From: a virus
Length of the DNA: 64,000 bases
Virus record (IMG/VR): IMGVR_UViG_3300038441_001651
Location: 5,934-69,933 of that record
Direction: 5' to 3' (one strand)
In this document: positions 2,465-3,045 of the stretch, in pieces
Numbering within the stretch: the first letter of the stretch is position 1
Layout of the letters: each line of letters starts with the position of its first letter
Program-made: the position numbers and the translations under genes
The notes under the pieces: generated by a model
The model's input: only the letters and a program-made list of their open reading frames with translations
What the model was told of the DNA's origin: nothing
The model's database searches: none

Positions 2465-3045
2465 CAAACTACAGCCGAGGGCTGTTTCCCTTAAAAATGC
2501 ACAATCCCGTAACCGGAACGGAGCGAAAGTGCGAGGAAACAGTCCTCGGGTGCAGTTTGCACCATAACCCTATTCATTTATCACTATATGTGGTTCAGGC
2601 GTTCAGAAGCCCTGGAATAGGGGGCAAAGATACAATGCGTTTACGCGGTAAGTAAGCCGCACCAATAGTCGATTCACCATTCGCGATCACGTAAGTAAAC
2701 GTGCGCCAAGCTGACGCATTTCGCGAAAAACATCTGAATGAGAAACAAAATATTCATCTACGACTGCGAGTAAGCGGTCTCCGTAAAACATGCGAAGATT
2801 CAAAAAGGGCGCTGACAAATCGCCCGATCAAGAAGCCGAAAGAGTAATTTCGCAACAGAAGACAGTTGTGCGTCTTCTGCGCAGCCGGAAACCGTGTGAA
2901 GTGGCGCTTCACCCAGAAAACTCTTTAGCAAGCTGACCGTAAGGAGGTTTGCGGTATGGAGGGTGTTCTGGAACTGCAGTTGGTCCACCGAAAGGGCAGG
3001 GCCGTGGGAAGCTGAGGATCAGCTGCAGTTCCTGTACACCCACCA
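2465..3045 (+). ncRNA. candidate large structured non-coding RNA (family unassigned)
   Basis: About 580 nt with no ORF of 60 aa or more on + inside it, more than 12 stems including nested long-range helices, a possible pseudoknot and three RAGTAA-loop hairpins; ends in a rod hairpin with a 3' ACCA. Confidence 0.55.

What the first reader, a model, noticed from the sequence alone, without database searches (positions are those of the whole stretch)
2465..3045. About 580-nt ornate non-coding RNA directly downstream of the tRNA
Seen stems: ACAGCC/GGCTGT (2471-2485), CGAGGA/TCCTCG (2532-2548), GGTGCA/TGCACC (2549-2563), long-range CCCTATTC/GAATAGGG (2568-2622), GGGCG/CGCCC (2807-2825), AAAGAGT/ACTCTTT (2839-2926) enclosing CAGAAGAC/GTCTTCTG and GTGAAG/CTTCAC, and GCAAGC/GTTTGC with an inner CC-GTAA-GG. 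Three hairpins carry RAGTAA loops (2645-2660, 2688-2703, 2762-2779). AATGCGT (2634-2640)/ACGCATT (2714-2720) interleaves with TTCGCGA (2680-2686)/TCGCGAA (2721-2727), a pseudoknot topology. A further structured block sits before the tRNA (2289-2350), so the unit could be about 760 nt with the tRNA embedded. Established: large phage ncRNAs such as ROOL and GOLLD are of this size and lie next to or contain tRNAs. I recognise no sequence match to them, so this may be a new class. N4-like genomes are otherwise tightly packed.
Basis: partly seen in the sequence, partly recalled or inferred. Interest (0 to 1): 0.8.

Follow-up and report, generated by a model that had tools for sequence, protein, structure and literature searches.

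The report
New large structured phage RNA family
The 583 bases after the tRNA of this N4-like Pseudomonas phage encode a large folded non-coding RNA whose helices are kept by compensatory mutations in related phages; it matches no described RNA family and its function is unknown.

Summary
The finding holds up. Window 2465-3047 (+ strand) is a non-coding, highly structured RNA unit. Two close relatives from other metagenomes (L258, about 96% identical; L237, 84%) keep 99.2% of 130 modelled base pairs. Ten pairs changed on both sides, against 0-1 in the slid controls. The one-sided stem changes pair as G.U only on the + strand. The 3' 165 nt (hairpins H1, H2, H3) recur with covariation in phCDa, Littlefix, 98PfluR60PP and many uncultured Pseudomonas N4-like phages. 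These relatives carry a 550-1600-nt gene-free, covarying RNA region in the same slot. Rfam 15 matches only tRNA, not GOLLD or ROOL. A 25-bp helix P1 replaces two of his hairpins. His 2839/2926 stem is broken in both relatives. His pseudoknot is unproven. The tRNA and the block before it are a separable insertion, because L237 lacks both. In LUZ7 the syntenic slot is a published hotspot of small non-coding transcripts (PMC9163698). No transcript evidence exists for this phage, and the function is only inferred. I favour a leader or RNP scaffold with four RAGYAA-hexaloop hairpins, linked to the small gene that always follows. The scan had not noted this RNA on other DNA.

The parts
2465..3047 (+). 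The ncRNA unit (583 nt).
   Evidence: Homolog in L237 begins at the base equal to 2465 and ends after ACACCCACC, without tRNA. 130 modelled pairs are 99.2% kept in 3 sequences, with 10 compensatory pairs. MFE z = -5.3. No Rfam family.
2465..2559 (+). P1: 25-position long helix (2465-2489 with 2535-2559, 23 paired) closing a variable apical element (2490-2534).
   Evidence: Compensatory C-G to U-A at 2488/2536 and G.U to A-U at 2481/2543 in L237. The apical 43 nt are replaced by unrelated sequence of similar length in L237.
2568..2622 (+). P2 domain: CCCUAUUC/GAAUAGGG closing two small hairpins. It is the most conserved part.
   Evidence: 100% identical in L237 and has one loop change in L258. 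Relatives have the analogous ACCCAAUAUC-[hairpin]-GGUAUUGG. Three metagenome contigs begin exactly at 2567.
2645..2660 (+). P3 hairpin with hexaloop AAGUAA.
   Evidence: Compensatory change at 2648/2657 and U.G to C-G at 2649; the loop becomes GAGCAA in L237. nhmmer aligns 2631-2664 to the relatives' profile, E 0.0066.
2680..2727 (+). P4 helix (2680-86 with 2721-27) enclosing P4a hairpin 2688-2703 (hexaloop AAGUAA).
   Evidence: Compensatory U-A to A-U at 2681/2726; U-A to U.G at 2680/2727; C-G to U.G at 2688/2703.
2735..2756 (+). P5 hairpin.
   Evidence: 6 pairs, invariant; both L237 changes fall in the loop.
2762..2779 (+). P6 hairpin with hexaloop GAGUAA.
   Evidence: G-C to G.U at 2766/2775 and loop G to A (R kept) in both L258 and L237.
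2807..2825 (+). P7 hairpin.
   Evidence: Compensatory G-C to A-U at 2809/2823 (L237) and C-G to U.G at 2810/2822 (L258).
2837..2852 (+). P8 hairpin with hexaloop GAGUAA.
   Evidence: Stem invariant; loop becomes GAGCAA in L237. The competing 2839-45/2920-26 pairing is broken in L237 and L258.
2856..2879 (+). P9 hairpin (8 bp).
   Evidence: Compensatory C-G to U-A at 2863/2872.
2896..2912 (+). H1 hairpin; the loop starts with UGG in the window and most relatives (UGA in L011).
   Evidence: 5 of 6 pairs have compensatory changes across 14 family members.
2928..2952 (+). H2 hairpin: outer stem, invariant CUGAC/GAGGU internal loop, inner stem with GNRA loop. The 3' strand is Shine-Dalgarno-like.
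   Evidence: 100% of cells paired and 5 pairs with compensatory changes in the family. Changes at 2929/2951 (L258) and 2931/2949 (L237) are compensatory. The loop is GUAA, GCAA or GAAA.
2958..3044 (+). H3: long branched hairpin ending 4 nt before the Shine-Dalgarno site (13 nt before its AGGAG core) of the next gene. It carries the loop (C)AUGGGAA, invariant across group A, with G for the A in the window.
   Evidence: 6 compensatory pairs in the family and 3 more against L237 (2976/3026, 2984/3018, 2986/3016). There is one A.C break in L258.
2389..2464 (+). tRNA-Arg(UCU) abutting the 5' end of P1. It is a separable neighbour, not part of the unit.
   Evidence: ARAGORN and Rfam. Present in L258 and absent in L237.
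2289..2350 (+). Block X: stem-loop module containing CGAUGUAGCGCAG. It is separable from the unit.
   Evidence: Conserved in L258 and absent in L237. A similar motif sits inside a covarying stem of L005-L007 and phCDa.
2360..2382 (+). Hairpin (7 bp) followed by CUUUAU between block X and the tRNA. It could be a weak terminator or a processing hairpin.
   Evidence: Read. C2378U gives G.U in L258. The function is inferred.
3049..3537 (+). Shine-Dalgarno site (3049-3056) and a 158-aa gene of a fast-evolving small Cys-motif protein family that follows the RNA in every relative examined.
   Evidence: No Pfam or PHROG match. AF2 model is low confidence.

Best explanation
Window 2465-3047 encodes, on the + strand, a 583-nt structured non-coding RNA of a previously undescribed, modular family. 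The family is confined, as far as searched, to a clade of Pseudomonas N4-like phages: relatives of phCDa (Shizishanvirus), Littlefixvirus and uncultured kin.

Shown:
- The RNA consists of a long basal helix P1 with a swappable tip, an ultra-conserved junction domain P2, a run of short hairpins, and a conserved 3' module H1-H2-H3. Four of the short hairpins carry the constrained hexaloop R-A-G-Y-A-A. H3 ends a few bases before the ribosome-binding site of a small Cys-motif gene.
- The helices are maintained by selection.
- The tRNA and block X upstream are optional neighbours.

Inferred:
- The RNA is made as part of the rightward transcript that runs from the 67-aa gene through the tRNA into the downstream gene. 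No intrinsic terminator-like site (+ strand) was found between the tRNA and 3733.
- tRNA 3' processing would free its 5' end at the foot of P1. P1 and H3 would protect the ends or serve as RNase III-type processing sites.

My preferred mechanism (about 35%): the RNA is a leader-plus-scaffold. The repeated RAGYAA hairpins would be multivalent binding sites for a protein, most simply the product of the gene that always follows. H3 next to the ribosome-binding site would couple occupancy or processing to translation of that gene.
For: Structure under selection:
- 3 close sequences give 130 pairs, 99.2% paired, with 10 compensatory pairs. No shuffle out of 500 reached this, and slid controls gave 0-1 (two-sequence version).
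- All 24 substituted stem positions in L237 preserve pairing: 9 double changes and 6 G.U-type single changes.
- In the 3' module across 14 sequences, 96.8% of cells are paired against 87.7% shuffled, with 16 compensatory pairs.
- The relatives' 555-610-nt core has 119 predicted pairs, 40 of them compensatory.

Strand: one-sided changes are pyrimidine or purine transitions that keep or give G.U on the + strand (2378, 2560, 2775, 2810, 2688, 2727, 2952). Invariant G.U pairs occur in H2.

Not coding: substitutions fall evenly over codon positions, and starts and stops are not kept.

Not a known family: only tRNA was found in the window and in 9 related loci.

Hexaloop motif: 4 of the 5 RAGTNA-hexaloop hairpins with stems of 5 bp or more on the + strand of the 64-kb window lie in 2645-2852. 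In the window's three close sequences, loop positions 2, 3, 5 and 6 are invariant while 1 stays R and 4 stays Y. Most other relatives' slots also carry RAGYNA-type loops.

Linkage to the downstream gene: the H3-to-SD arrangement and the gene family recur in all relatives.

No terminator-like site (+ strand) between the tRNA and 3733.

Expression of the syntenic slot: in LUZ7 the orf69-orf70 gap is an intense hotspot of RNAs under 250 nt without coding potential (PMC9163698; synteny).
Against: - There is no transcript evidence for this phage or for any phage that carries the family. The sequencing runs that hold the sequence are DNA or assembled contigs.
- The LUZ7 RNA region is at best remotely related: 8 bits, E 0.007 in 701 nt.
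- No protein-binding evidence exists. The downstream protein has no recognisable RNA-binding domain, and its model is poor, at pLDDT 53.
- The ribosome-binding site is not sequestered by H3, so a simple on/off translational switch is not apparent.
- Long-range tertiary pairings, including the pseudoknot, are unproven.
- The close-relative set is only three sequences, so P2, P5, P8 and H1 never vary within it.
Confidence: 0.6

Rival explanations
1. A purely cis-acting processing and stability leader. P1 and H3 would be RNase III-type sites, like the intergenic R sites of T7 (general knowledge). They would separate the tRNA transcript from the downstream mRNA and stabilise it. The hairpins between them would have no trans function.
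For: P1 (23 of 25 paired) and H3 (26 of 28) are long near-perfect duplexes. H3 sits directly before the ribosome-binding site in all relatives. No terminator-like site (+ strand) lies between the RNA and the gene.
Against: About 14 helices over 583 nt, a 57-nt domain with zero changes at 84% overall identity, and sequence-constrained hexaloops are far more than a processing site needs. In LUZ7 the slot yields discrete abundant small RNAs with their own start site.
Confidence: 0.18
2. A free-standing ornate RNA acting in trans without protein, in the manner proposed for ROOL and GOLLD (self-assembling RNA-only particles), carried by lytic N4-like phages.
For: Size, phage origin, tRNA neighbourhood, and a conserved 3' part with a variable 5' part. 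GNRA loops occur in H2 and H3a, and A-rich linkers would suit tertiary contacts. ROOL and GOLLD form multimers by cryo-EM (10.1101/2024.12.08.627333, listed).
Against: No Rfam match to GOLLD or ROOL at E up to 10. Few long-range helices are supported: only P1, P2, P4 and H3. Most of the RNA is a string of short hairpins. Multimerisation cannot be tested with these tools.
Confidence: 0.12
3. A tRNA-directed RNA. It would be a decoy or binder for tRNAs or tRNA-targeting host enzymes, for example with the UGG of the H1 loop pairing with tRNA 3' CCA as in T-box leaders. That would explain why tRNA genes and tRNA relics gather in the slot.
For: tRNA genes sit in or beside the slot: Arg-UCU in the window and L258, Arg-CCU in L238, Met in L011. 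T-arm and acceptor relics occur in phCDa, L008, Littlefix and L238. UGG is conserved in the H1 loop in all but L011, which has UGA.
Against: L237 has the full RNA and no tRNA. There is no T-box or tRNA-like Rfam signal in the RNA itself. The UGG/CCA pairing is only a three-base idea.
Confidence: 0.06
4. Not a functional RNA. It would be decaying tRNA genes and leftover hairpins, or a DNA-level element such as hairpin promoters for the phage RNA polymerases, an origin or a packaging signal.
For: The slot is mosaic and rich in tRNA relics. N4-like phages use DNA hairpin promoters with 3-4-nt loops (PMC9163698), and GGTGCA-GTT-TGCACC has that shape.
Against: Ten compensatory pairs against three disrupted cells: one A.C mismatch inside the supported helices, in H3 of L258, and two lost pairs in the unproven pseudoknot stem in L237. 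One-sided changes are tolerated only as G.U on the + strand and would be A.C in DNA or on the other strand. The 5' part differs from L258 by 1.9%, against 3.8% for the coding sequence upstream.
Confidence: 0.03
5. The region encodes small proteins: the 48-aa ORFs at 2701-2847 and 2790-2936, or the 19-aa ORF at 2956-3015 behind a perfect Shine-Dalgarno sequence.
For: The ORFs exist. AAGGAGG lies 7 nt before the ATG at 2956. The 19-aa ORF is intact in L237.
Against: Substitutions by codon position are 7/8/8, 7/7/3 and 1/2/1. The stop of the 2701 ORF is lost in L237. The ATG at 2956 is TTG in L258, and relatives have no start or other lengths. The same bases show compensatory pairing.
Confidence: 0.01

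Closest known systems
GOLLD (RF01998) and ROOL (RF03087) large phage-associated RNAs
   Same: Several hundred nucleotides long, many helices, carried by phages, next to tRNA genes, function unknown. The 3' part is conserved and the 5' part variable. The description of GOLLD is from general knowledge of Weinberg et al. 2009; the cryo-EM paper was listed but not read.
   Different: No covariance-model match at E up to 10. The host is Pseudomonas N4-like lytic phages rather than Lactobacillales, rumen or lake phages. The architecture is mostly serial short hairpins with RAGYAA hexaloops. The RNA always sits directly upstream of one gene family. Multimer formation is untested.
LUZ7 sRNA1-3 hotspot between orf69 and orf70 (ONT-cappable-seq, PMC9163698)
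   Same: Same genomic slot: after the gp46-like cluster, before a small helical protein gene and the convergent virion RNA polymerase gene. It is non-coding and has a long hairpin with a GGAG..CUCUGG / CCAGAG..CUCC base right before the next gene's ribosome-binding site. It is the only member of the neighbourhood with transcript evidence.
   Different: The gap is only about 400 nt. The model of the 3' module scores 8 bits. There are no RAGYAA hairpins. LUZ7 has its own sigma-70-like start and intrinsic terminators, and none was found in the window.
Stable RNAs of the T4 tRNA cluster (species 1 and 2, rnaC/rnaD). This comes from general knowledge and was not tested here.
   Same: Non-tRNA stable RNAs of unknown function encoded next to phage tRNA genes and presumably released by tRNA-processing enzymes.
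Structured mRNA leaders and translational operators of phage genes
   Same: The RNA lies in the 5' untranslated region of a gene, and its last helix ends just before the ribosome-binding site.
   Different: It is 583 nt with about 14 helices. The ribosome-binding site is not sequestered, and no alternative terminator or antiterminator fold was seen.

Membership tests
GOLLD RNA (Rfam RF01998) | Match to the family covariance model. | tested here: not met
   cmscan of the window at gathering threshold, and of 2200-3200 at E up to 10, lists no GOLLD hit. None appears in 9 related loci at E up to 0.01.
GOLLD RNA (Rfam RF01998) | Phage or prophage location next to, or containing, tRNA genes. | tested here: met
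   tRNA-Arg abuts the RNA, and tRNAs occur in the slot of L238, L011 and L258. This feature is not specific to GOLLD.
ROOL RNA (Rfam RF03087) | Match to the family covariance model. | tested here: not met
   No hit.
ROOL/GOLLD kind | Homo-oligomeric RNA-only assembly. | not testable with these tools
   This needs native gel, SEC-MALS or cryo-EM.
New family defined here (model R1: H1-H2-H3 module) | Full-length match to R1, with H1, the H2 CUGAC/GAGGU loop and branched H3. | tested here: met
   Window 2882-3048 scores 127 bits, E 9e-36 (the window was in the seed). Independent members outside the seed: L237 at 113 bits and L238 at 82 bits.
New family defined here | Position directly upstream of the small Cys-motif gene, near the convergent junction with the virion RNA polymerase gene. 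| tested here: met
New family defined here | RAGYNA hexaloop hairpins upstream of H1. | tested here: met
   Four in the window and one to three in every other slot scanned. L238, scanned separately, has AAGUAC/AAGUGC-type loops instead.
LUZ7 sRNA1-3 locus | Synteny of the slot. | tested here: met
   LUZ7 gene order is gp46-like, orf68, orf69, gap, orf70-72, then vRNAP on the opposite strand.
LUZ7 sRNA1-3 locus | Sequence or structure homology of the RNA. | tested here: inconclusive
   R1 with filters off scores 8 bits, E 0.007 in 701 nt, aligning only an H1-like hairpin and the base of H3. There is no hit with default filters.
Riboswitch or attenuator-type cis-regulatory leader | Mutually exclusive folds that hide a terminator or the ribosome-binding site. 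| tested here: not met
   No terminator-like site (+ strand) between 2465 and 3733. The ribosome-binding site at 3049-3056 lies outside H3. No riboswitch family is found in Rfam.
tRNA, tRNA-like or T-box | Covariance-model match within 2465-3047. | tested here: not met
   Only the true tRNA at 2389-2461 matches.

The most novel reading that the evidence does not exclude
A new class of large phage RNA. It would be a modular, recombining platform in Pseudomonas N4-like phages whose repeated RAGYAA hexaloop hairpins bind or titrate a protein, either phage-encoded or a host factor, during infection. tRNA genes and interchangeable RNA modules would be shuffled in and out of the same slot. If the RNA also turns out to self-assemble or to act on tRNA metabolism, it would give the ROOL/GOLLD question a genetically tractable Gram-negative model, because phCDa and Littlefix are cultured.
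Probability: 0.3. Interest if true: 0.85.

Novelty: new variant of a known kind. Interest (0 to 1): 0.72.

Why it matters
Large structured RNAs of unknown function are rare, and the phage-borne ones (GOLLD, ROOL) still lack a biological role. They are also found mostly in organisms that are hard to manipulate.

This family sits in lytic Pseudomonas phages, and at least three members (phCDa, Littlefix, 98PfluR60PP) are in culture. It has a clear covariation-backed secondary structure. It has a repeated sequence-specific loop motif that invites pull-down experiments. It has a fixed partner gene.

It also gives a candidate identity to the unexplained small-RNA hotspot reported in the syntenic slot of LUZ7. 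Finally, it shows that a region annotated as empty, or as small hypothetical ORFs such as Littlefix gp8, is a conserved RNA gene. Knock-outs and transcript mapping are therefore directly feasible.

Tried and rejected
- Rfam at gathering and permissive thresholds on the window and nine related loci returned only tRNA. The weak miRNA-type hits merely reflect the long H3 hairpin.
- blastn of the slot against GenBank phages found only the 77-nt H1-H2 patch in Littlefix and 98PfluR60PP.
- The IMG/VR relatives with 90-95% identical TerB have a different 5' RNA part.
- The metagenome pattern scan (GGTGTTYTGG..ACACCCACC) returned 119 chance matches. None fitted the profile, and the scan was wasted.
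- The downstream protein has no homolog outside its own phage by word search. Homologs of the RNA were reached instead through the neighbouring 67-aa and 68-aa proteins.
- Host-mimic idea: model R1 found nothing in 151 sampled Pseudomonas genomes, though the tool notes that an empty answer there is weak. It also found nothing in LIT1-like or other Schitoviridae loci.
- Sigma-70 promoter scan: none in 1500-4000.
- Thermodynamic long-range pairs predicted for 2291-3060 (p 0.5-0.7) are broken by L258 substitutions and were discarded.
- The AF2 model of the downstream protein was too poor (pLDDT 53.5) for a fold search.
- RsmA (GGA-loop) and Hfq (ARN) sponge ideas were considered and dropped, because the conserved loops are RAGYAA, not GGA or ARN repeats.
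- No RNA-level data were found. The runs labelled RNA-Seq that hold the sequence are probably DNA and are kept as contigs.
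Full report
**Context**

The window is most of a 72,851-bp IMG/VR virus record. It belongs to an N4-like (Schitoviridae) phage. A 3,390-aa virion RNA polymerase gene lies at 3759-13931 on the minus strand. The nearest named relatives are the Pseudomonas phages phCDa, Littlefix and 98PfluR60PP.

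The finding lies at the end of the rightward gene block. That block runs: a RuvC-like gp46 homolog, a TerB-like protein at 1642-2085, and a 67-aa membrane protein at 2087-2290. After the finding come a 158-aa gene (3061-3537), a 68-aa membrane protein, a bidirectional terminator-like hairpin at 3733-3748, and the convergent polymerase gene. The 770-nt gap at 2291-3060 holds one tRNA, Arg-UCU, at 2389-2464.

**The observation**

Window 2465-3060 folds 5.3 standard deviations better than dinucleotide shuffles on the + strand and 4.9 on the - strand. Folding energy therefore shows excess structure but not the strand.

Rfam 15 gives only the tRNA at gathering threshold. At E up to 10 it gives only chance-level hits caused by the long terminal hairpin.

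**Homologs of the 3' part**

blastn found a 77-nt patch (2875-2951) in Littlefix and 98PfluR60PP. Both have a gap of about 900 nt with no convincing gene at the syntenic place. phCDa has a 1-kb gap.

Loci were fetched through the TerB protein and through the C-terminus of the polymerase. They gave a dozen uncultured relatives with the same gene order and a gap of 650-1,050 nt.

An alignment of the last 165-190 nt before the downstream gene (A1, A5) shows three elements:
- H1 is a 6-bp hairpin whose loop starts with UGG in all but one member (UGA in L011).
- H2 has an outer stem, an invariant CUGAC/GAGGU internal loop, and an inner stem capped by GNRA or UUCG-type loops.
- H3 is a long branched hairpin with an apical loop, (C)AUGGGAA, invariant across group A with a single base change in the window.

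On 14 sequences, 96.8% of cells pair against 87.7% in shuffles. Sixteen pairs show changes on both sides, and the slid controls give 0-3.

A covariance model of this module (R1) finds it in:
- the window, phCDa, L086, L087 and L107 (full length);
- Littlefix, 98PfluR60PP, L093 and L011 (mainly H1-H2);
- the Logan contigs L237 and L238-L245, which were not in the seed.

R1 does not find the module in LIT1-like phages, in other Schitoviridae loci, or in 151 sampled Pseudomonas genomes.

**The relatives carry a large RNA too**

In ten relatives the 555-610 nt before the downstream gene align. They contain indels that are not multiples of three. RNAalifold predicts 119 pairs for them, 40 with compensatory changes. 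Translations of the ORFs in that region look like noise.

Upstream of this core the slots are mosaic. Blocks are shuffled between phages, and tRNA genes or relics of T arms and acceptor ends are scattered in them. In L238 the gene-free slot is 1.6 kb with tRNA-Arg(CCU) in the middle.

**The window's own 5' part**

By sequence, window 2465-2875 has no match among those relatives. The one exception is a weak collinear nhmmer match at the first RAGUAA hairpin (2631-2664, E 0.0066).

The downstream 158-aa protein occurs only in this phage. Three metagenome contigs that carry it are identical to the window but all begin at 2567. I read that as an assembly break at a junction between co-occurring variants.

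Two true homologs were then found:
- L237 (Logan SRR10875135) was reached through a 96% identical 67-aa protein. It holds an 84% identical copy of 2459-3098.
- L258 (Logan DRR804230, the contig seen as run X5) was reached through an identical 68-aa protein. It is about 96% identical.

L237 has no tRNA and no block X. After 31 nt of other sequence the RNA starts at the base homologous to 2465. L258 has block X, the tRNA and the RNA. The unit is therefore 2465-3047. The tRNA and block X are optional neighbours.

**Secondary structure of the window RNA**

I wrote a model of 16 helices and tested it on the three sequences. Of 390 pair cells, 99.2% are standard pairs. Ten pairs changed on both sides and stayed paired:
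- 2488/2536 in P1
- 2648/2657 in P3
- 2681/2726 in P4
- 2809/2823 in P7
- 2863/2872 in P9
- 2929/2951 and 2931/2949 in H2
- 2976/3026, 2984/3018 and 2986/3016 in H3

No shuffle out of 500 reached these values, and the slid controls gave 0-1.

In L237, 24 substituted positions fall in stems and none breaks a pair. Within the supported helices the only mismatch in the set is A.C at 2979/3023 in L258. The only other disrupted cells are two lost pairs in the unproven pseudoknot stem in L237 (below).

One-sided changes keep or give G.U on the + strand: 2378, 2560, 2775 and 2810 in L258, and 2688, 2727, 2775 and 2952 in L237. On the other strand, or in a DNA cruciform, they would be A.C mismatches. 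Together with the invariant G.U pairs of H2, this fixes the strand and argues for RNA rather than a DNA element.

Loop identities are kept:
- The H2 loop is GUAA, GCAA or GAAA.
- The four hexaloops vary only as R at position 1 and Y at position 4.

The P2 domain (2568-2624) has no change at all in L237.

- His first two hairpins (2471-2485 and 2532-2548) lose pairs in L237. The same bases form the long helix P1, which gains an A-U pair and shows a compensatory change.
- His stem 2839-45/2920-26 is broken at 2 of 7 positions in L237 and 4 of 7 in L258. The local hairpin 2837-2852, a fourth RAGUAA hairpin, is untouched.
- His pseudoknot partner stem 2634-40/2714-20 keeps 5 of 7 pairs without covariation, so it stays open.
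- Long-range pairs suggested by thermodynamic folding of 2291-3060 are also broken by L258 substitutions.

**Not coding**

For the + strand ORFs of 18 codons or more in the slot, substitutions against L237 are spread evenly over codon positions. Starts or stops are lost. The 19-codon ORF behind the Shine-Dalgarno-like H2 strand loses its ATG in L258 and is absent or different in other relatives.

**The hexaloop motif**

On the + strand of the 64-kb window there are five hairpins with stems of 5 bp or more closing an RAGTNA hexaloop. Four of them lie within 2645-2852. Every relative's slot scanned in that call, including the distant L011, L092 and L093, has one to three. L238, scanned separately, has the AAGUAC/AAGUGC variant instead. 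This is the most distinctive feature of the family. I take it as a recognition element, either for a protein or for an RNA tertiary contact. That reading is inference.

**Link to the downstream gene**

H3 ends 4 nt before the ribosome-binding site (13 nt before its AGGAG core) in the window, and similarly close in L237, L258, L238 and all group-A relatives. The gene belongs to a fast-evolving family of small proteins with:
- an N-terminal helical hairpin,
- a short Cys motif (MCxxC at the start, or CxCG..C in the middle),
- a small C-terminal beta unit in most members.

Littlefix gp9 and the L092 gene share these features, and LUZ7 orf70 resembles the N-terminal helix. The family has no Pfam or PHROG match, and the AF2 model is poor.

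**Expression**

No RNA data exist for phages that carry the family. In LUZ7, the gap between orf69 and orf70 is syntenic with the window's slot. The ONT-cappable-seq study reports it as a unique hotspot of late transcripts under 250 nt without coding potential, named sRNA1-3 (PMC9163698).

LUZ7 has a long hairpin with a similar base just before orf70. Model R1 scores it only 8 bits, so homology is undecided. In the window I found no sigma-70-like promoter, and no intrinsic terminator-like site on the + strand between the tRNA and 3733. The simplest reading is therefore co-transcription with the tRNA and the downstream gene, followed by processing. This is inferred.

**Mechanism**

Shown: a 583-nt + strand RNA fold under purifying selection, with modular architecture, a repeated constrained loop motif, a fixed position before one gene family, and a tRNA neighbourhood.

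Inferred: processing at the tRNA junction; protection or cleavage at P1 and H3; and a role as leader-plus-scaffold that binds a protein through the RAGYAA hairpins, which I put at about 35%.

The rivals are a pure processing leader, a ROOL/GOLLD-like protein-free particle, a tRNA-directed decoy, a non-functional or DNA-level element, and small ORFs. They are listed with their tests.

**Comparison and novelty**

The RNA works like, or at least looks like, the kind represented by GOLLD and ROOL, but it fails their covariance models, so it is not a member. It is a new family, found so far only in a clade of Pseudomonas N4-like phages from soil, wastewater, groundwater and plant samples.

Earlier notes of this scan concern only this same window. 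One of them described H3 as an acceptor-like rod with an ACCA tail. The helix is confirmed by covariation. The tail reads CCCAAAG in phCDa, so the CCA-mimic idea is not supported across the family.

Noticed in passing
window 2389-2464 versus L258 1402-1474: The tRNA-Arg(UCU) differs from its L258 ortholog at 7 of 76 positions, including a 1-nt D-loop deletion, two T-loop bases, and the encoded 3' CCA reading CTA. It is therefore more diverged (about 9%) than the adjacent ncRNA 5' part (1.9%).
   Followed up: partly
window 2567 (L234, L235 and one Logan contig): Three independent metagenome contigs identical to the window all begin exactly at 2567, the first base of the ultra-conserved P2 domain. 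This probably marks an assembly-graph branch where co-occurring phage variants with different P1 regions meet, that is, a recombination junction.
   Followed up: partly
L001 (Littlefix) 4753-4886 and 4674-4742: Rfam tRNA hits that ARAGORN did not call, one spanning 134 nt. They are possibly an intron-containing or degenerate tRNA, lying downstream of gp10 beside the annotated tRNA-Arg.
   Followed up: no
L238 4100-4163: Directly after tRNA-Arg(CCU) lies a tRNA-like element with a good acceptor stem, T arm and ACCA end but an oversized anticodon region. ARAGORN does not call it. A further T-arm relic lies near 3776.
   Followed up: no
L238 659-1177: An HNH homing-endonuclease gene (PF13392) is inserted between the gp46-like gene and the next gene in this relative. 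It is absent from the window.
   Followed up: no
L248-L256 (Pseudomonas chromosomes): Homologs (48-100% identical to P0005; P0005 itself is 52% identical to the window's protein) of the 67-aa membrane protein at 2087-2290 occur in chromosomal contigs of several Pseudomonas species, for example P. capeferrum and P. baetica. Whether they lie in prophages or are a host gene is not known.
   Followed up: no
L001 2934-3050 (Littlefix gp8): The annotated 38-aa hypothetical protein gp8 and two annotated ribosome-binding sites lie inside the conserved RNA: gp8 covers the region just upstream of H1 and H1 itself, and the annotated sites lie in and just after H2. They are probably mis-annotations of RNA structure.
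   Followed up: partly
window 3733-3748: A bidirectional terminator-like hairpin (CCCCTAAATAAGGGGG flanked by T runs on both strands) lies at the convergent junction between the 68-aa gene and the virion RNA polymerase gene.
   Followed up: no
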